IMG/VR virus record: IMGVR_UViG_3300025138_000060
Location: 1 to 51,201 of that record
Source of the DNA: a virus
Taxonomy: Duplodnaviria; Caudoviricetes
Strand: one strand, 5' to 3'
Length of the DNA: 51,201 bases
The notes beneath the pieces are model-generated. The model was given only the letters and a program-made list of their open reading frames with translations, was not told the origin of the DNA and did no database searches. Of the stretch, positions 20,223 through 43,070 are shown piece after piece. Numbering within the stretch: position 1 is the first letter of the stretch; every line of letters starts with the position of its first letter. Made by a program: the position numbers and the translations under genes.

Positions 20223-20386
20223 TGTGCTTCCCTTTCATCAGTTTTCTCAAGTCTGTTTTCGGCGTCCATTGCTTCCCAATCGTGTAAACAATCGGCACAA
20301 AGAAATTCGTTGGGCCTCCAATCATAAAAGCCCATCACTCCTACACCGCATCCGGCGCAGTGGTTCTTGTCATCTAGCCAACTCAT
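20219..20386 (-). CDS. Small zinc-finger protein (55 aa, not in ORF track)
   Basis: CAGC...CADC; ATGA overlaps at both ends. Confidence 0.7.
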   Translation of the reverse strand: MSWLDDKNHCAGCGVGVMGFYDWRPNEFLCADCLHDWEAMDAENRLEKTDEREAQ

Positions 20387-20925
20387 TGTGCTGCCCTCTC
20401 TGCTACCTGAGCAGCCATCATGGCATCAAAGTCAGATTTCAGCTTTTTGTCCTGCACCAGCCAGTCCCACCAAGTTGGGCAGCCGTATCGGTTTTCCTGA
20501 TCCCAGTTAATAAGCTGAGTAATTTTGCTGGGTAGTTTTTCCCAGCTGTGATTACAGCAGATCCAGCAATTGCCATTGTCAGCCTGTACAATGTCACCCA
20601 CTGAAATTGAGGGGGTTTCGGGGTGCTTAATAAACGAAAGCAGTGCGCCCTCTGGAAGCACCGGCCGTTGAGCATTGCCAGCTGCAAAAATCATTTCCAG
20701 ATGGGGCTGTATTGATTGGCTGTCGATTTCGAACTCATAGCCGAGCTGATACAGCCCCTCGTTGAACATTTCGAAAATGTCAGCAGCTGCATCCATTGCT
20801 GTGTCTTGGCTAATAAAACGCAGGTTGGCATATGCTTTAGACCAAGGCGCAAAGCCCCAGCCGTTGCCATTTAATAGAGCAATTTGCATCTCTGACATTT
20901 TGGCGGTGTATACTTTATATTTCAT
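20383..20925 (-). CDS. Hypothetical protein with YodL-like SISVGDIV motif
   Basis: Start moved to ATG 20925 (AAGGA RBS, promoter upstream). Confidence 0.6.
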   Translation of the reverse strand: MKYKVYTAKMSEMQIALLNGNGWGFAPWSKAYANLRFISQDTAMDAAADIFEMFNEGLYQLGYEFEIDSQSIQPHLEMIFAAGNAQRPVLPEGALLSFIKHPETPSISVGDIVQADNGNCWICCNHSWEKLPSKITQLINWDQENRYGCPTWWDWLVQDKKLKSDFDAMMAAQVAERAAQ

Positions 20926-20971
20926 TGTGATCAGTCCTTGTTTTGGTTGGTGGCCCTTGGGCCGTAGGCCC

Positions 20972-21184: not shown

Positions 21185-21361
21185 TTAACTGAACCACGTT
21201 TGCAGCCGTTTGGTTGCGTCTAATCTCCGAAGCACCTCTCTGTCTGAACTATCGACATATAAAAGATCTGTCAGATGCTCCGCCATATGATCGATGGCAA
21301 CCTGAAGCACGTTCATTTCTGTAGATGAAAGCTCTAGAGAGGTAGCATTAAAAGTACTCAT
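21185..21361 (-). CDS. Hypothetical protein (58 aa, not in ORF track)
   Basis: TGATG coupling to upstream gene; MSTFNATSLELSSTEMNVLQVAIDH... Confidence 0.65.
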   Translation of the reverse strand: MSTFNATSLELSSTEMNVLQVAIDHMAEHLTDLLYVDSSDREVLRRLDATKRLQTWFS

Positions 21362-22218
21362 CACGCCGCCTCTAGAAAACGACTGTCAGAGATCCACTTA
21401 TTTACCTCGACTTCGCGATTGATCATTGTGACTGCTTCGGTCTCGTTTTTGTTACTGGTATTCCGAAGCTCAAAGCCGTTGCCTAATGAATGGCTGGCAT
21501 AGTTTGTGAATGCTGACATGAGGCTAAATTTATTATGCCCTCGATCAGCTGCTTCCTGCATATATAGCTCATACATTTTTTCAGACTTTTGTTTTGATGG
21601 GATGATGTCCTCCAACAATTTCTGAACATCAAACGACTTGAACGAAGTCTGCGCGAAATGCTGAAGCCGTTCACTTTCCGCGTAGAAGTCGTTTTTTGCT
21701 CTGCGTAATTCACTGATAAAATTGTCTAGAGAAAACCCGCTGCTGTTTTTCCGGCGGATTGTAGAGTACTCGCCAGTGATGCAGCCGTTGGTGCAAAACG
21801 TGTCGATGGTTCCATAGAGCGCAGTATTGCTTCCGGCTTGCCCATCAACGCTGTGCATTGCCACGATACGTTGCCGCAACGAGGTCTCATGTCCACTGTC
21901 TGTGTAAATAGATGTTTCGATGCTGGGAAATTGTACATCCATTAAAGCAAAGCCACCCTGACGGCCTGATTTAAAACGCACCTCAGCCCCAGTGATATCC
22001 TCACCTTCGAGGTTCTCTGTGATTTGCTCCCATACACCATTAAAAAACTTGGTATGGCTGGCGCAATTGAAACCACCACCAACAACCGCAAACGGCTGCC
22101 CAGTGTTTCCATTAATTGCATACTTTCGATCAGCGACCCTTGTTGGTTCAAACTGTACGTCAAAATCTATTGAGGTAGGCAGTTCTAGATTATGGTTAAT
22201 TGTAGTAAAATCTAACAT
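21361..22218 (-). CDS. DUF932/DUF945-like phage protein
   Basis: HSVDG, FCTNG, AFTNYASH motifs. Confidence 0.75.
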   Translation of the reverse strand: MLDFTTINHNLELPTSIDFDVQFEPTRVADRKYAINGNTGQPFAVVGGGFNCASHTKFFNGVWEQITENLEGEDITGAEVRFKSGRQGGFALMDVQFPSIETSIYTDSGHETSLRQRIVAMHSVDGQAGSNTALYGTIDTFCTNGCITGEYSTIRRKNSSGFSLDNFISELRRAKNDFYAESERLQHFAQTSFKSFDVQKLLEDIIPSKQKSEKMYELYMQEAADRGHNKFSLMSAFTNYASHSLGNGFELRNTSNKNETEAVTMINREVEVNKWISDSRFLEAA

Positions 22219-22311
22219 TGTGATTGATCCTTTCGAGATCTGATTAAGTTAAAAATATATTGAGTAGATCGAGCCACAGAGACAAAGCACCGTAGCAAAT
22301 AAAGAGCAGCC

Positions 22312-22521
22312 TCACTGCACATTGCTAATTAGGCCGTCCTTCATTGTGACCCGCCCAAACCATTCACGGCCTTGCCCAGTAATATGGGGGCGGTTGCACA
22401 CTGTGAGGGTTCCATTGGATTGGTACTCAGGGCCGAACATACTGGTCTCGATATATTTGAGGCCGCTGCCGATATTTTCCTTCAAGTTTTTTTTACTTGG
22501 GTAGTTAGCGATTAAAGTCAT
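22312..22521 (-). CDS. Small early phage protein
   Basis: YPSKKNLKENIG..L.YIETSMFGPEY...WFG.V. Confidence 0.7.
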   Translation of the reverse strand: MTLIANYPSKKNLKENIGSGLKYIETSMFGPEYQSNGTLTVCNRPHITGQGREWFGRVTMKDGLISNVQ

Positions 22522-22621
22522 GTGATTGATCCTTTCGTGATCGTTGGTTGTGAGTATCGAGTACTCACGTAATCCATACCACTAATAGGTCAGCCAGTGC
22601 AATTATTAATACACTAGCAAA

Positions 22622-23075: not shown

Positions 23076-23173
23076 GTTTTAATTGCGTAACTAACGACTG
23101 TTAACTTTTAATTTGACAACCTGTTAACTTAATAGTTAGGTGGCGTAGTAACCAACTAACAGGAACCAATCCT

Positions 23174-23356
23174 ATGTATAAATCAAAATCAATTCATCAG
23201 TTGATGAACAATTACTTAAACAACCACACGCTAAGTAATGCGTGGTTGGTTTTAAACTACGTGCGTAAATACCCAACAGTATTGAGCGGCCTAAACCGCA
23301 TTGAGTTGGCTATCTACAAAGCTATCGTGGTAAACTGCGGAGAGGAAATAAGATGA
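23174..23356 (+). CDS. Hypothetical protein
   Basis: 60 aa, AGGA RBS. Confidence 0.6.
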   Translation: MYKSKSIHQLMNNYLNNHTLSNAWLVLNYVRKYPTVLSGLNRIELAIYKAIVVNCGEEIR

Positions 23357-25399: not shown

Positions 25400-25455
25400 G
25401 ACGCTGTCTCTTTGGAGAGGCAGAACCAACCAAAGACTATAACAACAGGTGACCA

Positions 25456-25788
25456 ATGACAAATTCAATCAATTTAAAAATAACATTAGAGAAGACTGAT
25501 GTAAAAGTTTACACAGTCGAGTACACACTCGAAAGAAGCGATCTTATTGAGTGGGTAGATAAAAATCGTGGATCATATCAGAAGGTCGAAGTAGACCCTA
25601 CACTAGATCCTAATGATGGTACTGAGGAAGTATCTTGTACTGAAGATCAATACTATGATTTACACATAGACAATTATATCGATGATCAAGATCCAGATCT
25701 TTTGTTTACTGATAATTGCCACGATCACGATAAATGTAAATTTGTAAGTGAAGAGTGTTCAATTCTACAAACTTATGCAGCAGACTAA
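25456..25788 (+). CDS. Acidic hypothetical protein
   Basis: 110 aa, AGGTG RBS, Asp/Glu-rich. Confidence 0.65.
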   Translation: MTNSINLKITLEKTDVKVYTVEYTLERSDLIEWVDKNRGSYQKVEVDPTLDPNDGTEEVSCTEDQYYDLHIDNYIDDQDPDLLFTDNCHDHDKCKFVSEECSILQTYAAD

Positions 25789-27267: not shown

Positions 27268-27319
27268 GTTGCTTTTTTTACAGACCTCTTTATTAAGTGT
27301 TGGATAGAGAGGATTATAA

Positions 27320-28534
27320 ATGCACCAATCATTATTGAATACCTGCCTTAGCAATAAATTTTATAACAATAACAAAACGAAGCTTAGAACTTCATTATTT
27401 GAGGAAACGCAGCAAGACTTATACAAAACAATCGTTTCAATGCACGATAAGTTTGAGAAAGATATTACACCACAAGAGCTTTTTAATTTTTGGAAATCGG
27501 AAAATCCTACGAGTACAGGTTCGTGGACACACGAAATTGAAAATGAAATCTCTTTAGTCGCAGAGTCTAAATCCTTAGATACGGAAATAGCTCACACCAT
27601 AATAGAAAATATCTGGCGGCAACACGTTGGCCTAGACATTGCTAACTTAGGTATCGCTATGTCTGAAGGCGATACTGGTAGTATGGATAAACTAGTTACG
27701 TTACTAGATCGTGTTTCGAAGGGCTATATGCCTGATGACTTTGCCGAAGATGTTACAGATGACATTTACGAACTTCTCGCGGTAGTCAGTAATGATAATC
27801 GTTTCAAATTTAACATCGAGACTTTGTCGCGCAATTGCTACGGCATAGGTCGGGGTGAATTTGGTGTGATAGCTGCTTACTCAAATGTAGGTAAAACTGC
27901 ATTGGCAATTAGTTTGTGTGCCGCTCCGGGCGGCTTTTGCCAACAGGATGCCAAGGTCTGCTACATTGCAAACGAAGAAGTAGCTAAACGTACCAAGCTT
28001 CGAGCTATTCAGGCTTATACTGGAATGACGAAGGAAGAGATCGAGTTCGATCCTCAAGCCGCCGCTGCTCGATATTCTGGTATTAAAGACCGACTGATAT
28101 TTGTAGATGCACAAGGCTGGGACATTCAGATGCTGGATGCTTACCTAAACAAGCAAAAGCCTGAAGTCTGTATCGTTGACATGGCGGATAAAATTGCACT
28201 GACCCAACTCTTCAATAGTGGGCATGAGCGACTACGTGAGCTATATTACAGATTACGTGAGTTAGCCAAGAAGCATGACTGCGCCCTGATTGGATTGTCT
28301 CAGGCCAGTGCTGAAGCTGAAGGTAAAACACGGCTTACTCCGACAATGCTGGAAGGCTCCAAGGTGGGTAAGATTGCAGAGACCGATATACTCATTGGTG
28401 CTGGAAAAATGAATGATGCAGAAAACCCTGATGATCCCACCCGCTACTTAACAGTGATGAAAAACAAAATTTCTGGCTGGCACGGGACTGTTATCTGCCA
28501 ACTGAATGCACAAACCTCACGCTACGAGGTTTAA
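27320..28534 (+). CDS. SF4 (DnaB/T7 gp4-like) replicative helicase
   Basis: Walker A AYSNVGKT, ANEE, IVDMAD, LSQA, KNKISGWHG. Confidence 0.9.
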   Translation: MHQSLLNTCLSNKFYNNNKTKLRTSLFEETQQDLYKTIVSMHDKFEKDITPQELFNFWKSENPTSTGSWTHEIENEISLVAESKSLDTEIAHTIIENIWRQHVGLDIANLGIAMSEGDTGSMDKLVTLLDRVSKGYMPDDFAEDVTDDIYELLAVVSNDNRFKFNIETLSRNCYGIGRGEFGVIAAYSNVGKTALAISLCAAPGGFCQQDAKVCYIANEEVAKRTKLRAIQAYTGMTKEEIEFDPQAAAARYSGIKDRLIFVDAQGWDIQMLDAYLNKQKPEVCIVDMADKIALTQLFNSGHERLRELYYRLRELAKKHDCALIGLSQASAEAEGKTRLTPTMLEGSKVGKIAETDILIGAGKMNDAENPDDPTRYLTVMKNKISGWHGTVICQLNAQTSRYEV

Positions 28535-28535
28535 T

Positions 28536-30686: not shown

Positions 30687-30711
30687 TTACGCCACCTAGT
30701 TAGCGTATAAT
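30684..30711 (+). promoter_or_regulatory. sigma70-type promoter (approximate bounds)
   Basis: TTGATT-17 bp-TATAAT. Confidence 0.65.
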
Positions 30712-30738
30712 GAAAGTTCCCAATTAAGGATTTAATTA

Positions 30739-31560
30739 ATGTCAGAACTAATACTCCAAGAAAATGGTTTATCGATAGATGAAATTAGTGCCCAGTTAGG
30801 CGCTGCCTCGACTCAAACTGGGCCAAGCATACCAAGCCTAGCTATGAATTATGATGGTGAGAATGGCCCAATGGGTGCGTTCTATCTCAAGACAGGTCAA
30901 GATCAAGCTTACGCAACTGAAGGCGTAAAGTTTAGAGCGTTTAGTAACCATATCCAATATCAACATTGGGGAGATGATAATTCTTTAATTAACAAATCTC
31001 TTATGATTAAAAATGCGAGGGAAGAAGCAAGAGATCAACTAGGCGGCGTTAATTGTGGAATGCCTTCCTATGATGACCTGATGCAACTCGATATTGAGCA
31101 AAGAAAAAAATATCAGGGTATTGATAGATATAGAGTAGTACGAGGCTTAGTCTCCTATGTTGGGAAGACTTCGGATGGTCGTGAAGTTACGATAGAAAAC
31201 CAGCCGTGTATTCTGTCTGTAAAACGTAAAAACTACGGCCCGTTTTGGCATGACGTTATAAAAAAACTTCCTCAAGGAATGAACCTGTGGGACTTTGAAA
31301 GCATACTTTCGAAAGAGACCCAAACTAATTCTCATGGCAAAAAGTATTATGTTATGCACTTTGCTCCACAGTTCGGTAGCCCCATCCCAATGGATCAGCT
31401 TACCTACGACAGTCTTGCTCACGTAACTAACTTAATCACCGCAGAGAACAAGCGGATCGATGAGATGTATAAAGCAGTTTCGATGGATATTGCAGACGCC
31501 TCTGCCTCAGAGCGCATTGCAGATAAAGTTCAAGCTAGCTTGGATGCAGACGTAGCATAA
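30739..31560 (+). CDS. Putative ssDNA-binding protein
   Basis: 273 aa, position after polymerase, acidic end; function from synteny only. Confidence 0.5.
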   Translation: MSELILQENGLSIDEISAQLGAASTQTGPSIPSLAMNYDGENGPMGAFYLKTGQDQAYATEGVKFRAFSNHIQYQHWGDDNSLINKSLMIKNAREEARDQLGGVNCGMPSYDDLMQLDIEQRKKYQGIDRYRVVRGLVSYVGKTSDGREVTIENQPCILSVKRKNYGPFWHDVIKKLPQGMNLWDFESILSKETQTNSHGKKYYVMHFAPQFGSPIPMDQLTYDSLAHVTNLITAENKRIDEMYKAVSMDIADASASERIADKVQASLDADVA

Positions 31561-32330
31561 TGGGTATTATTATAGATATGAGCAATGAGGCGTACCACAA
31601 ACAAAGTGGTATTTCCTCTACCGCAGTAAAGTCTGTCTATAAGAAAAGTCTTGCTCACTGGAAGGGCGAGAAACGTGTACAGACAGCAGCTTTTTCAATG
31701 GGGTCTGCTGTTCATGCATTACTTTTGGAAGAAAGTAAGGAATTAGTAATTAAAGGGCCAAAGACTAGGCGTTCTAAAACTTTTACCGAGATGGAAGAAA
31801 AGTTAGAGCCTGATCAAGTGATACTCACAGAAGTTGAATACAACGTAGCTAATAAGATAGCGCGAGAAACCTTAAATAATAAAAACTGCGAAGCTTATTT
31901 ACGTCATAAAGATAGGCAAAATGAGGTTAGTATATTTGCAGAGTGTGAACGGACGGGATTGGTCATAAAAACCAGACCGGACTTGTTTATACCCTCTGAG
32001 GGCACTGTTTTTGACGTAAAAACTACTCAAGATGCAAGTCCAATTGGGTTCGCAAAAGAGTGCTGGAAGTACAATTACGATTTGCAAGCTGCGTTCTACA
32101 TTTACACCTGCAAAATGGCTGGACTTTTAGTCGATAGTTTTAAATTTATTTCAGTTGAAAAGGCAAGTCCGTATGCCTCTCATATTCACGTAGTTAGTCC
32201 AGAATTATTGGATAATGCTACGGAACGAATGCACAATACTTTAGCTATTATTGCTGAAGCTACTGAGAAAGAAGAATTTGGCACTGGGTGGGGTGAATAT
32301 AGCATCCTTGAACTCCCCAAGTGGCTATAA
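31560..32330 (+). CDS. PD-(D/E)xK exonuclease (RecE/DUF3799-like)
   Basis: SNEAYH..ISST, GSAVH, KTRPD, DVKTT, YDLQAAFY. Confidence 0.85.
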   Translation: MGIIIDMSNEAYHKQSGISSTAVKSVYKKSLAHWKGEKRVQTAAFSMGSAVHALLLEESKELVIKGPKTRRSKTFTEMEEKLEPDQVILTEVEYNVANKIARETLNNKNCEAYLRHKDRQNEVSIFAECERTGLVIKTRPDLFIPSEGTVFDVKTTQDASPIGFAKECWKYNYDLQAAFYIYTCKMAGLLVDSFKFISVEKASPYASHIHVVSPELLDNATERMHNTLAIIAEATEKEEFGTGWGEYSILELPKWL

Positions 32331-32689
32331 CTACAGCCAGTGCCAAACAGAAGGGCCGAAAGCATCAGCAGTGGGTTAGGGACATTATATTAAGTCTTTA
32401 TCCCCAGCAACTCCTTCCCGATGATGTTAAGTCCACTTCTTCCGGCGCTGGCGGCGAGGACGTTCAGCTAAGTCCCGCTGCCAGACGCCTATTTCCTTAT
32501 TCTATTGAGTGCAAAGCTTACAAGTCTTTCGCATTTTACAAAATTATGGATCAGGCCGCTGCCAATGCTCCAAAGGGTGCAGAGCCACTAGCTATTATTA
32601 AAGGGGATCGCAAAAAGCCCTTAGCAGTGGTCGATGCAGAGCATTTTTTTAAGTTAACTAAAGAGGTGACTAATGAGCATTCCAACTAA
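32321..32689 (+). CDS. Holliday junction resolvase-like endonuclease
   Basis: AKQKGR, GAGGEDV, SIECK. Confidence 0.75.
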   Translation: MAITTASAKQKGRKHQQWVRDIILSLYPQQLLPDDVKSTSSGAGGEDVQLSPAARRLFPYSIECKAYKSFAFYKIMDQAAANAPKGAEPLAIIKGDRKKPLAVVDAEHFFKLTKEVTNEHSN

Positions 32690-33017
32690 TTCTATTCGTT
32701 TAGATATATTTATTGATCCGCCCACTGGTGATTTACAGATTGATGTTATTGATAATTTAACCGCAGACCTCGGCTCGAAGCAGGTAAGTTACTATTCAGA
32801 CGTAGTAAGTGGGTTAATAGCTAAGTTACATTCTGAAATAGGAAGTTTTCAAGAACACGGGTCATTGTTACGAGAACTGTCTGATCTTTATGATCACATT
32901 GATAATTTAGAAGACGATCTTGGTGTTGAGTTTGAGCCAGATGAAGAGCTTTTAGAGGCAATTAAAGAAAAACAAAAAGACGGCAATGTCGTCAAATTTA
33001 AGAAAAAGTTACACTGA
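32673..33017 (+). CDS. Hypothetical protein
   Basis: 114 aa, GAGGTG RBS, NVVKF..KLH end. Confidence 0.7.
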   Translation: MSIPTNSIRLDIFIDPPTGDLQIDVIDNLTADLGSKQVSYYSDVVSGLIAKLHSEIGSFQEHGSLLRELSDLYDHIDNLEDDLGVEFEPDEELLEAIKEKQKDGNVVKFKKKLH

Positions 33018-33319
33018 TGGCTAAGTGGGGCGCAATCCCGCCAGTGGAACCGTGGACTAATCATTTAACTATGAAGACGCCACACAAACCCGCTCCTGAC
33101 GTTGTGAACAGTCCACCTCATTATAACGAAGGCACGATTGAATGCATAGACGCAATGAAGGCTATGGCAGACGGCGTACTGAATGTCTCTGCACATGAAG
33201 CTTACTGTTGGCAGAATGCTTTCAAATACCTTTGGCGGTGGCCTTACAAGGCTGGCGTTGAGGATCTGAAGAAATGCCGTTGGTACTTAGATCGTTTAAT
33301 TGAGGAGTTAGAAGAATGA
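33017..33319 (+). CDS. DUF3310 (T7 gp1.7 nucleotide-kinase-like) protein
   Basis: VNSPPHY..G.IECIDA...NAFKYLWR..K..EDLKKCRWYL. Confidence 0.85.
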   Translation: MAKWGAIPPVEPWTNHLTMKTPHKPAPDVVNSPPHYNEGTIECIDAMKAMADGVLNVSAHEAYCWQNAFKYLWRWPYKAGVEDLKKCRWYLDRLIEELEE

Positions 33320-33795
33320 AATCACCATCTAAAATCGGTTGCTCCAGAGATGAACAATTATTGTATGCTATGGCTGAAGCGGGTTCAGAATTTCCTACTC
33401 AGGATTATTCTTCTACCCCGCTGGAAATGGTCACAGAGTTTGCAGAATGTATGGGGCAACCGCTTAATGTTCCTTGGTGTGAAGACAAGCCTCTCGAAGA
33501 ATTAAGATGGGACATGATCAGCGAAGAATACGAAGAAGCTTTTGATGAGAGTTGCTACAAAAAAAACCCTGAAAATATGCTTAAAGAACTTGCTGATATG
33601 TCAATTAATATTAATGGCTACTGCGCCACTTACGGTTGGAACTTAGACGAAGCCATCCGCCGTGTTCATCTCTCAAACATGAGCAAATTGGGCCAAGACG
33701 GCAAGCCCGTAAAAGACTCCAGAGGCAAAGTGCTGAAGGGGCCAAACTACAAACCAGCAATACTCACAGATTTAGTGGAGACCAATAATGAGTAA
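33316..33795 (+). CDS. MazG-like / PRA-PH-family nucleotide pyrophosphohydrolase
   Basis: EEYEE, KELAD, VHLSNMSKL, GKVLKGPNY. Confidence 0.8.
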   Translation: MKSPSKIGCSRDEQLLYAMAEAGSEFPTQDYSSTPLEMVTEFAECMGQPLNVPWCEDKPLEELRWDMISEEYEEAFDESCYKKNPENMLKELADMSININGYCATYGWNLDEAIRRVHLSNMSKLGQDGKPVKDSRGKVLKGPNYKPAILTDLVETNNE

Positions 33796-35692
33796 TTATT
33801 TACCTACAGACTATCAGACGTTTATCGCCACCAGCCGTTATGCACGTTGGCTTGATCAGGAAGGCCGCCGTGAAACGTGGTCCGAAACTGTCTCTCGCTA
33901 TATGAAAAATATAGTTATGCCCATTACTGGAGATGATAGTTATATAAAGAATATCGAACAAGCTATCTTAGGCTTAGAAGTAATGCCTTCGATGCGCTCC
34001 TTGATGACGGCGGGGCCAGCCGCTGCACGGGACAATACTTGTATGTATAATTGCTCTTACTTACCTGTAGATGATCCTAAGTCATTTGACGAAGCTATGT
34101 TCATTCTTCTCTGTGGAACGGGTGTGGGCTTCAGTGTTGAGCGCCAGTTCATCAGTAATCTTCCAGATGTGCCAAAGCTCTTTGAGAGCGACACAATCGT
34201 TATGGTTAGGGATAGTAAGGAAGGGTGGGCTAAAGCGTTTAGACAAGTTCTTGCTCTCCTTTGGGCTGGTGAAATTCCTAAATGGAATATAAGTAAGGTG
34301 AGACCAGCGGGTGCGAGGCTTAAAACCTTTGGGGGAAGGGCATCCGGCCCCGCTCCGCTGGTCGATCTGTTTAATTTTGCAGTTAGCACTTTCAAGGCTG
34401 CACAGGGCCGAAAACTGTCGAGCATCGAGTGCCACGATCTAATGTGTAAGATTGGTGAGGTAGTCGTAGTAGGTGGCGTAAGACGATCTGCTATGATTAG
34501 TTTATCAAATCTATCAGACGATCAAATGCGTCATGCTAAAAGTGGTAAGTATTTTGAAACTAATCCCCACCGCAACTTAGCAAACAACTCTGTAGCATAT
34601 TCACAAAAGCCAGACAGCATGAGCTTTATGCGCGAGTGGATGGCTTTAGTTGAAAGCGGATCTGGTGAGCGGGGTATCTTTAATCGTCAGGCGGCAAAAA
34701 CACAGGCTGCTAAGAATGGTAGGCGTGAGGCTAACTACGAATTTGGGACCAATCCTTGTTCTGAGATAATTTTAAGGCCAAACCAATTTTGTAATCTTAC
34801 TGAAGTAGTTGTAAGGGCCACAGACACAGTCGAAGATTTAGCTCGTAAAGTCCGTATCGCTACAATCTTGGGTACTATACAAAGTACTTACATAAAGTTC
34901 CCTTACCTACGTAAGACTTGGGAGACTAATACCGCAGAAGAGCGTTTGTTAGGGGTATCTCTAACAGGAATAATGGACAATCCATTAATGACTACTGCTA
35001 ATGCGGCTTTGCAAAAAACTTTGGGGCATTTAAAAGATGTTGCTATTAACACTAATATTGAGTGGGCTGAACGCCTTGGCATCCCTCAGTCTACTGCTAT
35101 TACGTGCGTTAAACCTTCCGGTACGGTATCACAACTGGTTGATAGCGCCTCTGGTATTCATGCTCGTCACTCACCCTATTATATTCGTACTGTTCGTGGT
35201 GATACTAAAGACCCACTAACTCAGTTTATGATAGACCAAGGCATTCCTAGTGAACCAGAAGCATTTAAACCTGATCAAACGACAGTATTTAGCTTTCCCA
35301 TGAAAGCTCCTAACGCTGCTGTATGCACTAAGGATATGACGGCTCTTAAACAGCTTGAGATGTGGCTATTGTACCAAAGACATTGGGCAGAACATAAACC
35401 AAGTGTCACTATTAACGTAAAGAAAGACGAATGGTTTGAAGTAGGTGGGTATGTGTATGAAAACTTTGACGAAATGTCGGGCGTTTCATTCCTACCATAT
35501 GACGATCACATTTATCAGCAAGCACCTTATCAAGAGTGTGATAAAACAACATATAACGAGTTGTTAAAAAAAATGCCGTCTAAGATAGATTGGTCTGCAT
35601 TGTCAGACTATGAACTCGAAGACACTACAGTATCTATGCAAACACTTGCGTGTTCTGGAGACAGTTGTGAGCTAGTAGATATATCTGCGTAA
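33788..35692 (+). CDS. nrdJ: Class II (adenosylcobalamin-dependent) ribonucleotide reductase
   Basis: NPCSEI, CNLTE, KPSGT, C-terminal ACSGDSCE; no beta-subunit gene. Confidence 0.9.
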   Translation: MSNYLPTDYQTFIATSRYARWLDQEGRRETWSETVSRYMKNIVMPITGDDSYIKNIEQAILGLEVMPSMRSLMTAGPAAARDNTCMYNCSYLPVDDPKSFDEAMFILLCGTGVGFSVERQFISNLPDVPKLFESDTIVMVRDSKEGWAKAFRQVLALLWAGEIPKWNISKVRPAGARLKTFGGRASGPAPLVDLFNFAVSTFKAAQGRKLSSIECHDLMCKIGEVVVVGGVRRSAMISLSNLSDDQMRHAKSGKYFETNPHRNLANNSVAYSQKPDSMSFMREWMALVESGSGERGIFNRQAAKTQAAKNGRREANYEFGTNPCSEIILRPNQFCNLTEVVVRATDTVEDLARKVRIATILGTIQSTYIKFPYLRKTWETNTAEERLLGVSLTGIMDNPLMTTANAALQKTLGHLKDVAINTNIEWAERLGIPQSTAITCVKPSGTVSQLVDSASGIHARHSPYYIRTVRGDTKDPLTQFMIDQGIPSEPEAFKPDQTTVFSFPMKAPNAAVCTKDMTALKQLEMWLLYQRHWAEHKPSVTINVKKDEWFEVGGYVYENFDEMSGVSFLPYDDHIYQQAPYQECDKTTYNELLKKMPSKIDWSALSDYELEDTTVSMQTLACSGDSCELVDISA

Positions 35693-35708
35693 CTAGTTAT
35701 TTTTACAT

Positions 35709-35740
35709 AAAAAAACCTACAGATCGCTTGACCTCTAGGC
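35709..35740 (-). terminator. Terminator of the late ejection-protein operon
   Basis: Minus strand CCTAGAGGTC-AAGC-GATCTGTAGG followed by T7; overlaps -35 of sRNA promoter. Confidence 0.6.
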
Positions 35741-35756
35741 TCGTTTATTGTAAAAT
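35728..35756 (+). promoter_or_regulatory. sigma70-type promoter of candidate sRNA
   Basis: TTGACC-17 bp-TAAAAT. Confidence 0.75.
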
Positions 35757-35762
35757 GTTACC

Positions 35763-35838
35763 AGAATAAGGTTAATGATTGGTCACCTTGTTCGTTGGTT
35801 GGAAACCCCTTGCTTTGGTTGGCGAGGGGTTTCTTTTT
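35763..35838 (+). ncRNA. Candidate ~76-nt trans-acting small RNA
   Basis: Promoter, hairpin GAATAAGGT/ACCTTGTTC, linker, 12-bp terminator stem plus T5; complementary to many phage RBS regions. Confidence 0.7.
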
Positions 35839-38800
35839 ATGGGAAGGCGTCTTGCATCTGTACACTTACGGACGGCGTTTCTTCGCCTTGTGCGCTATCA
35901 ACAATAGCTCCGGGGTACGCCATTGGCAAAGTGCTTAATTTGTTTGCAGTGCCTTCAACAATACCTTTACCAACTGCTTTAAGTGTGCCCGTAATCCCTA
36001 ATTCTTTTGCTATTATTAAATATTCTTTAGCGGCCTGAAACCCACTTCTACTAATAGTAGGGTTTGCATCGAGCATTGCAGCTAACAGTCTGGGTTGTTT
36101 AAGTAATATGGTAAGCTCTTGTACCTGTTTACCTAAAGGGAATTGATCTACAAATTTCTTAAATGCCGCAGAACCAATTGCCGCTGCCTGAAGGCTGGCG
36201 TTACCTGTACCAAACAAGACACCAATATTCGCACCCGCTATTCGAGCTATGTTCTTTTGAATATCTGGCGTATCACTCATAACTTTATTGAAAACGGCTG
36301 GGTCACGTAAGCCTTTTTCTATCCTTAGACCTTCTGCCAACATATTAAGAATAGCGTCCCGTTCCTGTGGCCCCATAATTTCTTTATTGACCATAGTATC
36401 TAAAATATTGGTATCGCCTTTTCTGCCACTTAAAGGTTTTAGAAGTCTTTCGGATATTTTGAGTAAATCAGGAGATCCATCAGGTTTAGTTGCGCCCCTA
36501 AATAGTTCATCCATTGTAGCGTTTCTAAAATCAATCTTAGCGTCAATTGTAATAGCTTCATCTGCAAGTCTTGAGAAACTTTCTACAGGGTTAGCATCAT
36601 CGATGGCTTTGCCTATTGCTTCAGGAAGTTTTTCATTTGCTGCGGAACTTAAATCTTCTATTAATTTATTCGCTGTACGCCTTGCATCGTAGAGTAATGT
36701 AATATTGTTTCTGAGATCTGGAAACTTATCGAGTAAGTCTGAGTTTTTAGAAACAAACTCTTCAATAGCTTCTGCGCTTAATTCAGCTTGTGTTCCATCT
36801 ACATTCTTCCCGGCAAGTTCCTCGATCTTTGACCTTAAAAAATCTTCTTGGGCAGCAGACATTTCATCACCTAAACTTAAAGGTAGATTATCTGCCTCAG
36901 TAGTTAAGGCTGTTTTATCTGCACTTTGTCCACCTTCGTTAAGTTTAAAATTATCAGTAGCAGTCTCTGGCCCACTTCGACTATAGGTAGCACCTTCGGG
37001 TCTATTAAACAGTTCGTCTAGTCGTTCTTGGTCTGCCACCCCATCTGGCAATTCCTCTTTTGAAATAGGATTTCCGTCAGCATCTACTACATCATCAGAA
37101 AATTGTCTTTTAGGGCCACGGCGTCCATCCGGCGGAAAAACTCTTTCACCATCAATTATAACAAAGCCATCACCTTCTTGAGTGCCTATAGGATAGCTAG
37201 TATTCTCTGGGTACAGTAAACCTTCATTAGTAGCGACTTCAGTGTTACTTGTACGTGTGCCATCGTCACCTAATGTAGAAGCTTTTCTACGTGCTTCGTC
37301 CTCAGCCCTAAGAACTGCTAAGTCCGGGCCTAGATCATCAGCAAATTGTGTAGCGTCCCGTAACTCCCCAAAGTTAGTACCTGCGTCACGGCCCCCTGCA
37401 CCAAAACCCTCGCTTAAAACATCTGTATCTCTTACTGTAGTGCCGCCTGTTTTTTCGGTAGAAAGTATGTCTTTAGTAAAATACCTATTAAAGCGTTTGT
37501 TTAATTCTAAACTAAAGTTTCTAGCAAGTCCTACAGTGTCACCCGCTGCTCCTTGTAGTTTATTCAATTCATCAATACTTGCGCCAGCTAATTCATCAAA
37601 CAAACCTGCGTGGAAATAATCGTTATTAGCACCAAACTTGCGAGAATTAGACAACATAATAGAACGAAATTTTAATATTTCTCCTACTGGTATTCCTTGA
37701 CCATTTTTAATTTTTTGGTTTAGAATATCTATCGCTGTGTCTATTTCATCTCCACCAGCAATTCGCATCCCATCAAGAAGGTCGTTTGCGTAAATTCCAT
37801 CTATCGCTTCAGATATTTTTTTACCGTCTAGAATTTGGTTTTTGTCTATGCGGTTCCAAAGAAAAGTTTCCATCTCACGTATGTTAGTTTTTGCTTGAAA
37901 TAGAGTTTTTTGAGCCAGTGCAGAAGCCGCTGCTTGATCGCCTGTGCCTTTTATAGCCTTCATGGCTTCTGCTACATTGCTGGAAGAATTTGCAAAACGT
38001 GCATCTATCATAGCCGAATACGCTCTTGTACGTAGCGCCTCTGCGGCGGCTGTATTTCCAGCCCGTGCAAGGATCTCTGATACCTCAAATATGCCAGTTA
38101 TAGCATTATTAGCCCGTTGCATAATTTCGCCACCAAACTGAGGACTTTCGCCCATCAAAGTTTTTTGTAACGCTAAAAGAGTAGGGTTATTACTTACTGT
38201 ACCCGCTGGTAATAAATTGACTGCGTTTGGCGTGAGAGGATTAGCATCTTCCAATGCTAGTTGTGTCTCAATGTCAGACTGCATTCTTTCGGGTGTAAAT
38301 TTGTCTGCCTCAAGTCGTAAGGCATCTGCCATTTCTGTGTTGCCGTTTTTAGCCATTAAATCGGCTTCTCTTAACAGAGACTGCCTACTTGCATCTGCTG
38401 CCACAAGTATCTGTTGATAAGCCCCTTGCTGGGCCGCAGATGTAGTGACGCCTTTCATAGCTTGCTTAAATATACCGCTTACTACACGTACCCCCGGTAA
38501 ATTTCTTGCTATTGCAGGGGTAATATTGCCAGTTAAAGCACCAAGGATTTCCCCGCCAGCTACTGCATAGGGATTATCACCCATTCCAATTGCTTCTACC
38601 GTACTTGCGCCAATCGCAGAACCCGTAGTTGCGTATGCTTCACCCTTAATAAATTTTTTCGGGTTATTTTTTATAGATTGCATAAGAGGATTAGCTATCC
38701 CAAAACCAGCTTTTGCTGCTTTTAAAAGAGCAATTCCGGGCAAAACATTTTCTGCAATAACGCGAGAAGCAGCGGCCTGAGTTCTATATTCATCAGGAAT

Positions 38801-39421
38801 TTCATTAATATTATCTACGTACTTTGTTTTGTTATCTTCATCAAAGTCTGTACCAAAAGTTTTATTAACTGTTGAAGCAACTAAGTTTGCAGCGGGGTCA
38901 GTAGTAACATTAGCAACCTTTTCTATACCTCTTCTTACATTTTGGCTTCCAAAAGGGGCTACCTCTGAAGAGAACAAAAAATCTTTTGGGTCAGTGCTTA
39001 AATAAAAATCTGGATCATAGTTAGGGGAATCTGGATCGTCTACTCCTTCAGGTGGGTTTAAACTTGCCAACTTGTTAGCTCCGGCTCTTACGCCGCCTTC
39101 AACAACCTGCGGGATCATATTAAGTAAATCACCGGGCAAGCCTATTATGTTAGTTAGCCCTGTAGCTCCCATATTCATATTGGCTTCGAATTGACTGTCT
39201 ATATCTTCGCGAACAGTCTTACCTGATGTCAAATAATCTAGTAAGTCACTAGTACTTACCCCGGCATCAAGGGCTTGTTGTAGATCAAGGGTCTCATCAT
39301 TAACATTTAGCACGCCATTACTGTCTTGTAGTAGGATGTTAATAATATCTAAATCATCGACATTGTTTTCTCGATCAGACCTGATTTGATCAACATTAAT
39401 TTTTCTTGACTCTTCTGCCAT
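35837..39421 (-). CDS. Large internal virion (ejection) protein
   Basis: 1194 aa, helical Ala-rich, last of three large late genes. Confidence 0.6.
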   Translation of the reverse strand: MAEESRKINVDQIRSDRENNVDDLDIINILLQDSNGVLNVNDETLDLQQALDAGVSTSDLLDYLTSGKTVREDIDSQFEANMNMGATGLTNIIGLPGDLLNMIPQVVEGGVRAGANKLASLNPPEGVDDPDSPNYDPDFYLSTDPKDFLFSSEVAPFGSQNVRRGIEKVANVTTDPAANLVASTVNKTFGTDFDEDNKTKYVDNINEIPDEYRTQAAASRVIAENVLPGIALLKAAKAGFGIANPLMQSIKNNPKKFIKGEAYATTGSAIGASTVEAIGMGDNPYAVAGGEILGALTGNITPAIARNLPGVRVVSGIFKQAMKGVTTSAAQQGAYQQILVAADASRQSLLREADLMAKNGNTEMADALRLEADKFTPERMQSDIETQLALEDANPLTPNAVNLLPAGTVSNNPTLLALQKTLMGESPQFGGEIMQRANNAITGIFEVSEILARAGNTAAAEALRTRAYSAMIDARFANSSSNVAEAMKAIKGTGDQAAASALAQKTLFQAKTNIREMETFLWNRIDKNQILDGKKISEAIDGIYANDLLDGMRIAGGDEIDTAIDILNQKIKNGQGIPVGEILKFRSIMLSNSRKFGANNDYFHAGLFDELAGASIDELNKLQGAAGDTVGLARNFSLELNKRFNRYFTKDILSTEKTGGTTVRDTDVLSEGFGAGGRDAGTNFGELRDATQFADDLGPDLAVLRAEDEARRKASTLGDDGTRTSNTEVATNEGLLYPENTSYPIGTQEGDGFVIIDGERVFPPDGRRGPKRQFSDDVVDADGNPISKEELPDGVADQERLDELFNRPEGATYSRSGPETATDNFKLNEGGQSADKTALTTEADNLPLSLGDEMSAAQEDFLRSKIEELAGKNVDGTQAELSAEAIEEFVSKNSDLLDKFPDLRNNITLLYDARRTANKLIEDLSSAANEKLPEAIGKAIDDANPVESFSRLADEAITIDAKIDFRNATMDELFRGATKPDGSPDLLKISERLLKPLSGRKGDTNILDTMVNKEIMGPQERDAILNMLAEGLRIEKGLRDPAVFNKVMSDTPDIQKNIARIAGANIGVLFGTGNASLQAAAIGSAAFKKFVDQFPLGKQVQELTILLKQPRLLAAMLDANPTISRSGFQAAKEYLIIAKELGITGTLKAVGKGIVEGTANKLSTLPMAYPGAIVDSAQGEETPSVSVQMQDAFP

Positions 39422-39438
39422 TTATAATTCCTTACTAA

Positions 39439-42865: not shown

Positions 42866-43049
42866 CAGTAAGCTCCTCGTCTTTAGTTTTTTTGCTGTCA
42901 GTAGGCTCATCTAAAAGCTCTGCTTCTAGCTCATCAAAAAAGTCCGGTGTATAAAACAAACCACTTTCGGCAAGCTGTCCTGTTTGCATAGGAGACTTAC
43001 CCGCAAGAAATGTTTTAATAGATTTTTTCACCGCTTCATCAAATGTCAT
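42855..43049 (-). CDS. Hypothetical protein
   Basis: 64 aa, AAGGGA RBS. Confidence 0.6.
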   Translation of the reverse strand: MTFDEAVKKSIKTFLAGKSPMQTGQLAESGLFYTPDFFDELEAELLDEPTDSKKTKDEELTDAT

Positions 43050-43070
43050 TATATAATCCCTTACTTACGC

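What the first reader, a model, noticed from the sequence alone, without database searches (positions are those of the whole stretch)
35728..35838. Candidate phage sRNA antisense to the ribosome-binding regions of about ten early and replication genes
Seen: promoter TTGACC-17-TAAAAT, then a ~76-nt unit (hairpin, linker, terminator) with UUGGU in loop 1, the linker and the terminator loop, plus an anti-SD CACCUU. The reverse complement of 35773-35802 (CCAACCAACGAACAAGGTGACCAATCATTA) recurs at gene starts: 25447-25457 AGGTGACCAAT (11/11, covers SD and start) plus 25426-25433 CCAACCAA; 23150-23171 AACCAACTAACAGGAACCAATC; 20936-20950 on minus (15 bp with a 2-nt sRNA bulge); 22541-22550 on minus (10/10); 22221-22229 on minus (one G-U); helicase 27324-27334 ACCAATCATTA (11/11, codons 2-5); 32664-32674 AGGTGACTAAT (one G-U); nrdJ 33777-33786 (9/10); 26989-26998; 17549-17556 on minus (8/8). 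I saw no comparable sites at structural gene starts. Inference: one RNA silences the early/replication programme, either for the early-to-late switch or for lysogeny/immunity in an integrase-carrying phage with no recognisable CI repressor. It is conceptually like P1 C4 or P4 CI RNA but with many more targets.
Basis: partly seen in the sequence, partly recalled or inferred. Interest (0 to 1): 0.92.

Follow-up and report, generated by a model that had tools for sequence, protein, structure and literature searches.

The report
Phage small RNA targeting early-gene leaders
A marine phage carries a conserved gene for a small RNA of about 76 nucleotides whose exposed parts match the ribosome-binding regions of several of the phage's own early genes, and in a related phage the RNA and its target sites have changed together, which points to RNA-based control of the early programme.

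Summary
No transcript evidence was obtained.

- **The gene.** Window 35763-35838 (+) is a two-hairpin RNA gene with its own sigma-70-type promoter. It lies between the convergent nrdJ operon and the late operon of an HMO-2011-type roseophage.
- **Conservation.** Homologues sit at the same junction in Roseobacter phage CRP-738, in divergent form in CRP-235, and in at least 44 IMG/VR contigs. Stems covary, while the loop AUUGGU and the linker GUU(C)GUUGGU are invariant. G.U pairs outnumber A.C by 86 to 5, so the folded strand is plus.
- **Targets in the window.** About 4-5 early leaders pair better than chance, not about ten. No late gene start does.
- **Covariation with targets.** Orthologous leaders (69-aa gene, 285-aa gene, helicase) pair in CRP-738, G040 and G001, using phage-specific sRNA positions. 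In CRP-235 the linker is UUUCAAGUUUAG and the leaders carry CTAAACTTGAAAGGG instead of CAACCAACGAAC.
- **Absence where expected.** Six sRNA-less relatives lack both the gene and the leader motifs.
- **Extra feature.** The hairpin holding the -35 box is a minus-strand terminator, so late mRNA should end with the full antisense of the sRNA.

Repression of translation, and any role in immunity or timing, are inferred. There is no Rfam match, and no paper was found linking these phages to sRNAs.

The parts
35709..35740 (-). Hairpin P0 plus flanking A-run (a U-run on the minus strand). This is the intrinsic terminator of the late (minus-strand) operon. Its top holds the -35 box of the sRNA promoter.
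   Evidence: The minus strand folds at -22.2 kcal/mol, z = -6.3, followed by U7. Four homologues behave the same way. 86.8% of cells are paired and 3 pairs show compensatory change. There are 0 G.U but 18 (+19 inner) A.C cells when read on the plus strand, which means G.U on the minus strand.
35728..35756 (+). sRNA promoter: TTGACC, 17 nt, TAAAAT.
   Evidence: TTGACC is invariant. A -10-like hexamer (A2, T6, >=4 of 6) lies at 17-18 nt in 18 of 21 homologues although the hexamer itself varies.
35763..35838 (+). Predicted sRNA of about 76 nt. The 5' end is inferred from the -10 box; the 3' end is the U-tail.
   Evidence: Fold. Covariance model R1 scores 83.7 bits here. Homologues are shown.
35764..35793 (+). 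Hairpin 1: 9-bp stem (35764-35772 with 35785-35793) and a 12-nt loop, 35773-35784, containing the invariant AUUGGU. The 3' arm is pyrimidine-rich and anti-SD-like.
   Evidence: RNAalifold on 19 sequences. 38 G.U against 3 A.C cells shows the plus-strand RNA is the folded one.
35790..35801 (+). Conserved stretch GUUCGUUGGUUG (main seed). Its first four bases, 35790-35793, are the base of the hairpin 1 3' arm; the unpaired linker proper is GUUGGUUG, 35794-35801.
   Evidence: G80 T81 T82 G84-T89 are invariant in alignment A2. It is unpaired in the consensus structure.
35801..35838 (+). Rho-independent terminator with U-tail. The loop UUUGGUUGG is a possible third seed.
   Evidence: 48 G.U against 2 A.C cells. 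The loop's reverse complement matches 25426-25435 over 10 nt.
22522..22551 (-). Predicted target 1: leader of the 69-aa gene 22312..22521, the first gene of the leftward early operon. It contains CAACCAACGA plus AGGATCAATCAC directly before the ATG.
   Evidence: Best duplex in the window, -37.5 kcal/mol, lower than the lowest value (-34.4) seen with 200 shuffled sRNAs over all starts. Orthologous leaders pair over 15 nt in CRP-738 and 11 nt in G040.
25426..25457 (+). Predicted target 2: leader of 25456..25788, the first gene of the replication module. It contains CCAACCAA(AG) and AGGTGACCAAT, covering the SD and the start codon.
   Evidence: 11 of 11 exact. Duplex -32.2 kcal/mol. The CRP-738 primase leader carries CAACCAACG.
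20925..20950 (-). Predicted target 3: leader of 20383..20922, CCAACCAAAACAAGGACTGATCAC.
   Evidence: Duplex -27.2 kcal/mol. No orthologue was found in the other genomes by tblastn.
23150..23171 (+). Predicted target 4: leader of 23174..23356, AACCAACTAACAGGAACCAATC.
   Evidence: Duplex -25.3 kcal/mol. The G040 orthologue has TCAACCAACTAACAAGGACCAATC.
27324..27334 (+). Predicted target 5: helicase codons 2-5, ACCAATCATTA, complementary to the loop of hairpin 1.
   Evidence: 11 of 11 exact. Orthologous helicase starts or leaders match each phage's own sRNA over 10 nt (CRP-738), 11 (G040), 8 (G001) and 10 (G037). Five sRNA-less relatives with a helicase hit carry GAACT(A/G/T)(T/G/A)CACT(T/G) after the ATG instead, with no ACCAAT.
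32664..32674 (+). Weak candidate: AGGTGACTAAT before 32673..33017.
   Evidence: Duplex -24.5 kcal/mol. It is not conserved in orthologues, where the longest matches are 5-6 nt.
22221..22233 (-). Weak candidate in the window: AGGATCAATCAC before the 285-aa gene 21361..22218.
   Evidence: Only 6 nt are exact here. The orthologues are strong targets, however: 9 nt in CRP-738, 11 nt plus CCAACCAACCAAC in G001, and 14 nt in G040.

Best explanation
35763-35838 (+) encodes a trans-acting base-pairing sRNA of an integrase-bearing HMO-2011-type roseophage.

Transcription. It is transcribed from its own host-type promoter. It may also arise by read-through from the nrdJ operon.

Structure. It folds into hairpin 1, a single-stranded linker and a terminator.

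Pairing. The linker (GUUCGUUGGUUG), the 3' arm of hairpin 1 (CCUU-like) and the loop (GAUUGGUC) pair co-linearly with early-gene leaders. The three parts meet, in order, the ACCAAC motif, the Shine-Dalgarno sequence, and the spacer plus start codon.

Targets. These include the first genes of the leftward operon, the first gene of the replication module and the helicase start.

Consequence. Covering the SD and the AUG should block translation initiation and may trigger mRNA decay.

Relation to the late operon. The late operon, transcribed on the other strand, ends at hairpin P0. P0 lies beyond the sRNA gene and overlaps its -35 box. Late mRNA therefore carries a full antisense copy of the sRNA. 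Late transcription should both interfere with sRNA synthesis and titrate the sRNA.

What is shown by computation: the gene's conservation, structure, strand and promoter, and complementarity that covaries with the targets.

What is inferred: expression, the direction of the effect (repression), and the biological role (prophage immunity or superinfection exclusion, or damping of early genes).
For: (1) Conservation at one place.
- blastn of the 301-nt region against 50,697 phage records finds only the same intergenic spot of CRP-738, while the flanking coding DNA is not matched.
- Pattern scans and the covariance model find it in at least 44 IMG/VR contigs.

(2) RNA structure.
- 20 consensus pairs, 8 of them with compensatory changes.
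- The single-stranded AUUGGU and GUU(C)GUUGGU are invariant.

(3) Strand.
- Hairpin 1 and the terminator hold 86 G.U cells against 5 A.C cells on the plus strand.

(4) Promoter.
- The -35 box is invariant. The -10 box varies but stays -10-like at 17-18 nt in 18 of 21 homologues.

(5) Targets in the window.
- 3 of 4 exact matches of >=10 nt lie at sense gene starts.
- 5 of 33 early starts reach <= -24 kcal/mol against 0 of 24 late starts. One of 200 shuffles does as well.

(6) Targets in relatives. Starts with >=9 nt complementary to the phage's own sRNA:
- CRP-738: 6 of 67 (0 of 500 shuffles reach this).
- CRP-235: 5 of 71 (0 of 500).
- G040: 5 of 91 (1 of 500).
- G001: 3 of 73 (5 of 500).
- Inner-gene control windows: 0 in every genome.
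- A 15-mer lies in the true leader of CRP-738 gp64.

(7) Covariation.
- The CRP-235 sRNA has linker UUUCAAGUUUAG and loop UUUGGUCA.
- Its leaders carry CTAAACTTGAAAGGG (15 nt, 8 nt before an ATG), TAAACTTGAAA and TGACCAAATG.
- Cross-pairing counts are 0: the CRP-235 genome against four GUUGGU-type sRNAs gives 0, 0, 0, 0. The reverse direction gives 0, 0, 0, 2.
- Within the GUUGGU type, the best matches use phage-specific sRNA positions:
  - window: ACCAATCATTA
  - G001: GACCAATCTTT
  - G040: ATGGACCAATC and CAACCAACGAACAG
  - CRP-738: AACCAACGAACAAGG
  - G037: TACCAACTAA

(8) Co-occurrence.
- Six sRNA-less isolates have only a terminator at the junction.
- They have 0-4 ACCAAC and 0-1 GACCAAT leaders, against 4-7 and 3-6 in the four complete GUUGGU-type genomes.

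(9) P0 as a minus-strand terminator.
Against: - No transcript evidence. The single metatranscriptome run that shared words with the stretch had no contig over 35540-36457.
- In the window alone the exact-match test is only modest: 18 of 500 shuffles do as well.
- Within the GUUGGU-type group, a phage's own sRNA does not beat the sRNAs of sister phages in the count matrix, because the seeds are shared. The clean covariation therefore rests on one divergent lineage (CRP-235 type) plus the single-phage variants.
- In G001 the 69-aa gene has no site.
- The 3' arm that should meet the SD is paired inside hairpin 1.
- RNAduplex ignores intramolecular structure and accessibility.
- The gene starts used are my own calls.
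- The direction of regulation and the role are untested.
- Integrase, and the lack of a CI-like protein, do not distinguish sRNA-bearing from sRNA-less relatives.
- No prophage copy was found in 185,579 species-representative genomes with two exact patterns.
Confidence: 0.68

Rival explanations
1. The sRNA is real and pairs with the leaders, but its effect is not repression. It could stabilise or activate early mRNAs. Or its main partner could be the late-operon 3' end, with 3'-end processing or stability control through the perfect duplex.
For: The late mRNA should carry a perfect antisense of about 76 nt, because P0 is a minus-strand terminator lying beyond the sRNA gene. The leaders have a 5' hairpin directly upstream of the pairing site. 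Its function is unknown, and the sRNA could alter it.
Against: Predicted duplexes cover the SD and the start codon in the best targets, which is the usual geometry of repression. Selection on leader complementarity across phages is not explained by a purely cis-antisense role.
Confidence: 0.15
2. The shared motifs are DNA or protein-recognition sites rather than RNA-RNA pairing sites. Under this view a phage or host protein binds CCAACCAAC.../GACCAAT at early genes and at this junction. Alternatively, the junction is just an inverted copy of a repeated leader cassette kept alike by recombination.
For: The reverse complement of the sRNA reads like a consensus leader (motif, SD, spacer). The covariance model weakly hits target leaders in antisense orientation. 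Leaders form a repeated family within each genome.
Against: Stems of the element covary independently of the leaders and use G.U pairs on the plus strand only. Promoter and terminator are conserved. Matches are short (8-15 nt) and centred on ribosome-binding sites, even inside an operon and inside helicase codons 2-5, rather than being long identical repeats. A protein that binds the leader RNA motif would not bind its complement.
Confidence: 0.07
3. The sRNA is real, but its important targets are host mRNAs or host sRNAs. The phage-leader matches would then be secondary.
For: Other phage sRNAs act on host transcripts. VpdS and PreS are described this way in the passages of the review PMC12197685 that I read. 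I tested no host genome.
Against: Leader motifs switch together with the sRNA seed in CRP-235. They are absent in sRNA-less relatives. This is expected only if phage leaders are under selection to pair.
Confidence: 0.07
4. No functional RNA exists: a chance promoter-like site sits next to an ordinary bidirectional terminator.
For: Promoter-like hits in the region 30000-40000 are not above shuffles overall (15 found, 20.3 expected). No expression data exist.
Against: Conservation, covariation, strand asymmetry and target covariation all argue against it. sRNA-less relatives show what a plain terminator junction looks like.
Confidence: 0.03

Closest known systems
c4 antisense RNA of phages P1 and P7 (immunity; blocks the ribosome-binding site of the ant operon)
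   Same: It is a phage-encoded RNA of about 75 nt. Short exposed segments pair around a ribosome-binding site of the phage's own mRNA, and specificity is set by a few bases. The mechanism is taken from passages of PMC12197685. The size and the two-segment pairing are recalled.
   Different: c4 is cut out of the leader of the operon it controls and has one target region (recalled). Here the RNA has its own promoter and lies far from its 4-8 predicted targets on two divergent operons. No sequence or structure match was found: Rfam gave no hit at gathering thresholds, and C4 was not among the hits at E<=10.
CI RNA of satellite phage P4 (RNA immunity factor)
   Same: An RNA, not a protein, acts as the candidate immunity determinant of an integrase-bearing element. 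It pairs with repeated complementary sites in early transcripts (recalled).
   Different: P4 CI is processed from the same transcript and causes premature termination rather than RBS occlusion (recalled). No Rfam similarity was found. Immunity is not shown here.
sar RNA of P22 and OOP RNA of lambda
   Same: These are small phage antisense RNAs that lower expression of a regulatory phage gene (passages of PMC12197685). Like them, this RNA overlaps a convergent transcript, here the late-operon 3' end.
   Different: sar and OOP act on the gene they overlap. Here the overlap is with a 3' UTR, and the conserved, covarying matches are to distant leaders.
VpdS of vibriophage VP882 (Hfq-binding, multi-target phage sRNA)
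   Same: It is a trans-acting phage sRNA with several phage and host targets (passages of PMC12197685).
   Different: The host and phage group are unrelated. VpdS promotes replication. No homology was tested beyond Rfam. Hfq dependence is unknown here.
Alphaproteobacterial sRNAs with repeated loop motifs that pair at ribosome-binding sites (for example CcsR 'cuckoo' RNAs and AbcR) (recalled)
   Same: The host clade is the same. A short motif is repeated in loops and linkers (here UUGGU). There are multiple mRNA targets at or near the SD.
   Different: The motif differs (CCUCCUCCC there, recalled). Those are chromosomal stress regulators. No Rfam hit was found here.

Membership tests
Trans-acting base-pairing sRNA (generic class) | Independent transcription unit: promoter plus Rho-independent terminator | tested here: met
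   TTGACC-17-TAAAAT and a terminator with U-tail. Promoter geometry is kept in 18 of 21 homologues. This is by sequence only; no transcript data exist.
Trans-acting base-pairing sRNA (generic class) | Conserved secondary structure with covariation, and conserved unpaired seed | tested here: met
   20 pairs, 8 with compensatory changes. Loop AUUGGU and linker GUU(C)GUUGGU are invariant. G.U asymmetry of 86 against 5.
Trans-acting base-pairing sRNA (generic class) | Complementary target sites that are conserved or covary | tested here: met
   CRP-235 switches both the seed and the leader motif.
Trans-acting base-pairing sRNA (generic class) | A detectable transcript with a regulatory effect | not testable with these tools
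   The one RNA run found does not cover the locus.
C4 antisense RNA family (P1/P7 c4, P4 CI; Rfam) | Match to the family covariance model | tested here: not met
   cmscan of the window at gathering thresholds gave 0 hits. At E<=10 on 35600-35950 only rnk, PyrR, L10 leader and Chlorobi-RRM models appeared, all far below their cut-offs.
C4 antisense RNA family (P1/P7 c4, P4 CI; Rfam) | Processed out of the leader of the operon it regulates (recalled) | tested here: not met
   The gene lies at the 3' end of the nrdJ operon with its own promoter, 8-15 kb from its predicted targets.
3'-UTR-derived sRNA | Shares the terminator of an upstream mRNA and can arise by read-through or processing | tested here: inconclusive
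   P0 is weak on the plus strand (-10.8 kcal/mol, A.C mismatches). nrdJ transcripts may therefore run on to the sRNA terminator, but an internal promoter is also conserved.
Cis-antisense RNA to the late operon 3' end | A convergent transcript overlaps the whole RNA | tested here: inconclusive
   The late-strand terminator P0 lies beyond the sRNA gene in 5 of 5 homologues folded. On the minus strand the sRNA terminator lacks a U-tract. No 3'-end mapping is available.

The most novel reading that the evidence does not exclude
This RNA is the immunity repressor of a subgroup of integrase-bearing HMO-2011-type marine phages that have no recognisable CI-like protein. One constitutive sRNA would lock the ribosome-binding sites of 4-8 early genes on both early operons. 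The late-operon 3' UTR, a built-in perfect antisense ending on the sRNA promoter, would act as the anti-sRNA switch that makes lytic commitment irreversible. Seed and leader divergence (GUUGGUUG against AAGUUUAG types) would then define heteroimmunity groups, as with P1 and P7.
Probability: 0.25. Interest if true: 0.9.

Novelty: new variant of a known kind. Interest (0 to 1): 0.78.

Why it matters
HMO-2011-type phages are described as a dominant, widely distributed marine viral group (abstract of PMC9038755). How their integrase-bearing members control early genes or lysogeny is unknown. No CI-like protein was found in 13 genomes.

A conserved multi-target sRNA whose seed and target leaders have co-evolved gives a concrete, testable regulator. 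Cultured phage-host pairs exist (CRP-738 on FZCC0089 and CRP-235 on FZCC0040).

It would add a trans-encoded, many-target case to the few phage antisense RNAs known (c4, CI, sar, OOP). It would also be an example of a three-part layout: early leaders, the sRNA, and a late-mRNA antisense tail.

It also supplies a covariance model for annotating an RNA that current phage annotations miss. In CRP-738 the spot is unannotated, and one target gene has a wrong start.

Tried and rejected
**Expression.** The look-up of sequencing runs (kind rna) on 35000-36600 gave one metatranscriptome run with a 0.06 share of words. Laid at 85% likeness, it held only 8 short contig pieces over 35000-35535 and 36500-36600, most under 90% alike, and none over the sRNA. 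This is no evidence either way.

**Rfam.** No hit at gathering thresholds over the whole window. Only sub-threshold, unrelated leader models appeared at E<=10.

**Prophage copies in bacterial genomes.**
- Pattern GATCGCTTGACCT-gap-GTTCGTTGGTT: 0 hits.
- A looser pattern (18 specified bases) gave 92 stretches in unrelated taxa. That is about the number expected by chance, which I had underestimated.
- The covariance model found none in the 80 of 92 that were held as loci.
- So no lysogen or host was identified. Exact patterns would miss variants.

**Co-factors and correlates.**
- DUF1127 (CcaF1-like) protein at 16574-16714 is present in 12 of 13 related genomes, with or without the sRNA. It is not specific.
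- Integrase is present in all 6 sRNA-bearing genomes, but also in 6 of 7 sRNA-less isolates. It is not discriminating.
- HTH_3 and Peptidase_S24 hit 0 of 13.

**Other copies in the window.**
- The only further covariance-model hits (18242-18316 minus, 27200-27268 plus) match the terminator half only.
- The invariant 13-mer around the -35 box has no other copy within 3 mismatches beyond chance: 8 found, 9.9 expected.

**Target gene functions.** Pfam and PHROGs name only integrase, helicase, primase and endonuclease VII. The best targets are of unknown function.

**Methods that fell short.**
- The first duplex scan used T instead of U and a 40-nt tiling. It served only for ranking and was superseded.
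- Literature searches were badly posed (min_terms 2 did not force the phage term) and say nothing. replace them.
- G038 and G039 (partial contigs) showed no matches >=10 nt. Whether they include the early region was not checked.
- In one search my coordinates for L339 were wrong, so that fold is meaningless and I do not use it.

**Papers.**
- PMC9038755: search listing, abstract start and four passages.
- PMC12197685: listing and twelve passages.
- Other titles: listings only.
- Supplements were not opened. The review's Supplementary Table S1 (38 phage sRNAs without function) could bear on novelty.
Full report
**Setting**

The window is a whole IMG/VR virus record of 51,201 bp, estimated 95% complete.

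- Minus-strand structural and late genes occupy 1-14,645 and 35,837-51,031.
- A leftward early block runs from about 22,521 down to about 15,139.
- A rightward block runs from 22,806 to 35,692. It holds the integrase, primase, DnaB-like helicase, DNA polymerase and nrdJ.
- The finding lies in the 144-nt gap between the stop of nrdJ (35,692, plus) and the stop of a convergent 1,194-aa late gene (35,837, minus).
- The nearest isolate is Roseobacter phage CRP-738. It appears in the isolate table of the paper on newly identified HMO-2011-type phages (PMC9038755, passages read).

**Observation**

- The promoter TTGACC-17-TAAAAT is at 35728-35756.
- The downstream 81 nt fold as a 9-bp hairpin with a 12-nt loop, a 7-nt linker in the single-sequence fold, and a 14-bp terminator with U-tail. 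The energy is -33.2 kcal/mol, z = -4.99.
- ARAGORN finds no tRNA or tmRNA.
- Rfam finds nothing.

**It is a conserved RNA gene on the plus strand**

blastn of 35600-35900 against 50,697 phage records gave a single hit. It is 131 nt at 76.7% identity, lying exactly between the reductase gene and the convergent gp20 of CRP-738.

Two exact-pattern scans of IMG/VR recovered the element in 34 contigs. One pattern came from the linker and one from the promoter, so the second is unbiased with respect to the RNA. The covariance model added G001 and G002. A divergent form occurs in CRP-235 and 8 more contigs.

In an alignment of 19 distinct sequences:
- The loop AUUGGU and the linker GUU(C)GUUGGU are invariant.
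- The stems change with pairing kept. There are 20 consensus pairs, 8 of them with double compensatory changes.

The stems hold 86 G.U cells against 5 A.C cells when read on the plus strand. A minus-strand RNA would have the opposite bias. The functional fold is therefore on the plus strand.

The -35 hexamer is invariant. The -10 hexamer differs among lineages (TAAAAT, TATACT, TACTAT, TATAAT, TAAATT). It still keeps A2, T6 and at least 4 of 6 matches, at 17-18 nt spacing, in 18 of 21 sequences.

The only plus-strand ORF that starts in the RNA begins at an ATG that CRP-738 lacks.

**The hairpin around the -35 box belongs to the other strand**

The 8 outer pairs of hairpin P0 (35716-35739) are 86.8% paired, and 3 pairs show compensatory change.

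- P0 has 0 G.U and 18 A.C cells on the plus strand, plus 19 A.C in the inner pairs.
- Folded on the minus strand it gives -20 to -23 kcal/mol (z from -3.8 to -6.3). A U-run follows in the window, CRP-738, CRP-235, L085 and L057.
- On the minus strand the sRNA terminator hairpin is followed by CAACCAAC, not by U.

My inference is that late transcripts pass through the sRNA gene in antisense and stop at P0, on top of the sRNA promoter. This also explains why 15 nt around the -35 box are invariant and occur nowhere else in the window. The strand-asymmetry count and the folds test it computationally, but 3' ends are not mapped.

**Targets in the window**

Outside the locus there are 4 exact matches of >=10 nt to the reverse complement of 35762-35803. 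Three lie at same-strand gene starts.

RNAduplex of sRNA nt 1-42 against -50..+15 of 57 hand-curated starts gave these energies:

| Target | Energy (kcal/mol) |
|---|---|
| Leader of 22312..22521 | -37.5 |
| Leader of 25456..25788 | -32.2 |
| Leader of 20383..20922 | -27.2 |
| Leader of 23174..23356 | -25.3 |
| 32673..33017 | -24.5 |
| Best late start | -22.8 |

- Five of 33 early starts are <= -24. One of 200 shuffled sRNAs reaches that count.
- Two of 33 are <= -30. None of 200 shuffles reaches that.
- None of 24 late starts is <= -24.

In the best duplexes the pairing is co-linear:
- the linker pairs with the (C)CAACCAAC motif;
- the 3' arm pairs with the SD;
- the loop pairs with the spacer and the AUG.

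The stricter automatic test is weaker for the window alone. Three of 73 starts qualify, and 18 of 500 shuffles do as well. I therefore count 4-5 credible targets here, not ten.

**Targets in relatives**

*CRP-738.* The longest match in the whole genome is a 15-mer, AACCAACGAACAAGG.
- It sits 47 nt inside the annotated gp64.
- The alignment with the window's 69-aa protein shows that the true start is the ATG 8 nt downstream of the 15-mer. The site is therefore the SD-containing leader.
- Further sites: gp61 (12 nt, over the start), helicase gp10 (TGGACCAATC, over the start), gp59, gp63 and primase gp08 (9 nt each).

*G040* (complete) has 14-, 12-, 11-, 11- and 11-mers at early leaders and at the helicase start.

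*G001* has CCAACCAAC repeats plus GACCAATCTTT, which matches its own loop AAAGAUUGGUC.

*Orthologue table*, longest match to the phage's own sRNA, in nt:

| Gene | Window | CRP-738 | G001 | G040 | G037 |
|---|---|---|---|---|---|
| 69-aa gene | 10 | 15 | 5 | 11 | no orthologue |
| 285-aa gene | 6 | 9 | 11 | 14 | no orthologue |
| Helicase | 11 | 10 | 8 | 11 | 10 |

- Integrase, DNA polymerase and the 71-aa gene show only 5-6 nt. That is the background level.

*Shuffle tests*:

| Genome | Starts with >=9-nt match | Shuffles reaching this |
|---|---|---|
| CRP-738 | 6 of 67 | 0 of 500 |
| G040 | 5 of 91 | 1 of 500 |
| G001 | 3 of 73 | 5 of 500 |
| CRP-235 | 5 of 71 | 0 of 500 |
| G037 (22-kb fragment) | 1 of 27 | 92 of 500 |

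Inner-gene control windows scored 0 in every genome.

**Covariation of sRNA and targets**

CRP-235 has the same layout at the same junction: P0 with TTGACC in its top, TATAAT at 18 nt, two hairpins and a U-tail. Its loop is UUUGGUCA and its linker region is CCCUUUCAAGUUUAG.

Its genome-wide best match is the 15-mer CTAAACTTGAAAGGG, 8 nt before an ATG of the leftward early block. Three more leaders follow, each carrying (A)CTAAACTT... and TGACCAAATG.

- CTAAACTT occurs 8 times in that genome, 5 of them in -50..+12 of gene starts. It occurs in 0 leaders of the four complete GUUGGU-type genomes.
- ACCAAC leaders number 4-7 in those four genomes and 1 in CRP-235.
- Cross-pairing counts are 0 in both directions, except for 2 in G040.

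Smaller, phage-specific agreements point the same way:
- G040's sRNA reads CCUGUUCG and its target reads CGAACAG.
- CRP-738's sRNA reads CCUUGUUCG and its target reads CGAACAAGG.
- G037's linker is GUUAGUUGGUAG and its three best sites read ACCAACTAA.

One counter-example exists. The first rightward gene keeps ACCAACTAAC in the window and in G040 although their linkers read GUUCGUUGG. That is one mismatch.

**Distribution**

- Six other HMO-2011-type isolates (CRP-207, -2, -13, -345, -1 and HMO-2011) have no covariance-model hit. So does CRP-603.
- At the convergent junction those six have only a terminator.
- They have few or no leader motifs.
- Eight complete genomes of other lineages share the 69-aa gene but lack the sRNA. 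Their leaders lack ACCAAC.

These are different lineages, so this co-occurrence is not independent evidence.

**Mechanism and role**

The geometry covers the SD and the AUG. That argues for inhibition of translation initiation, as in c4 and sar (passages of PMC12197685). This is an inference.

The 3' arm must open for full pairing. Loop and linker contacts would have to nucleate the interaction.

Role:
- All six sRNA-bearing genomes have an integrase.
- None of 13 related genomes has an HTH_3 or S24 protein.
- An RNA immunity factor is therefore attractive. Neither property is specific to sRNA carriers, however, and no lysogen was found.
- The antisense late 3' UTR suggests that the sRNA is neutralised once late transcription starts. 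That fits an immunity or early-phase brake better than an early-to-late shut-off.

My estimates: about 0.68 that this is a real sRNA acting on phage leaders, most probably as a repressor, and about 0.25 that it is the immunity determinant.

**Comparison and novelty**

It works like the phage antisense regulators c4, CI, sar and OOP. It fails the membership tests for the C4 family: no model match, and it is not processed from the regulated leader.

It differs from those regulators in three respects:
- it is trans-encoded with its own promoter;
- it addresses 4-8 leaders on two operons;
- it is fully overlapped by the tail of the late operon.

In print:
- Full-text searches found 0 papers with HMO-2011 and sRNA.
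- Five papers hold both roseophage and 'small RNA'. Judged by title and abstract start, none deals with phage sRNAs.
- The HMO-2011-type paper has 0 occurrences of 'sRNA' or 'small RNA'.
- About 1.7 million PMC papers and all supplements were not searched.

I rate it a new variant of a known kind. It rests on comparative evidence only.

Noticed in passing
L112/L113 (CRP-738, MZ892992.1) record 53120-53398, minus strand: The annotated GTG start of gp64 (53398) is probably wrong. The protein aligns with the window's 69-aa protein from the ATG at 53329-53327. The stretch in between is a 5' hairpin plus the 15-nt sRNA-complementary site.
   Followed up: yes
window 22551-22569 (-), 25404-25423 (+), about 20951-20975 (-); also G001, G040 and CRP-738 leaders: Each strong target leader begins with a stable hairpin without a U-tract, directly 5' of the ACCAAC motif. 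One such hairpin (GGGCAnnTGTGCCTG) is conserved across CRP-738 gp61, G001 and G040. The function is unknown. It could be a 5' stabiliser, a processing site or an attenuator.
   Followed up: partly
window 16574-16714 (-): A 46-aa DUF1127 protein (Pfam 31.6 bits). Related genes occur in 12 of 13 HMO-2011-type genomes searched, with or without the sRNA.
   Followed up: partly
window 22312-22521 (-): The 69-aa protein (phrog_37117, unknown function) has relatives in 241 IMG/VR stretches across many phage lineages. It is usually at or near the head of an early operon.
   Followed up: partly
window 18242-18316 (-) and 27200-27268 (+): Two terminator-like hairpins (AAAGAACCCUGC...GGGGUUUUUUU) resemble the sRNA terminator half (23 and 19.3 bits) but carry no seed. 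The second sits just before the helicase gene.
   Followed up: no
window 35814-35822 (+) and 25426-25435 (+): The terminator loop UUUGGUUGG is complementary to CCAACCAAAG (10 nt) in the 25456 leader and to CCAACCAAA at 20942-20950. The loop motif is present in 12 of 19 aligned homologues, so it may be a lineage-specific extra seed.
   Followed up: partly
window 25456-26552 (+): The gene behind the strongest rightward leader (110 aa) has no detectable orthologue in the other genomes by tblastn. The next ORF is primase-like (phrog_47). In CRP-738 the ACCAAC leader precedes the primase gene directly.
   Followed up: no
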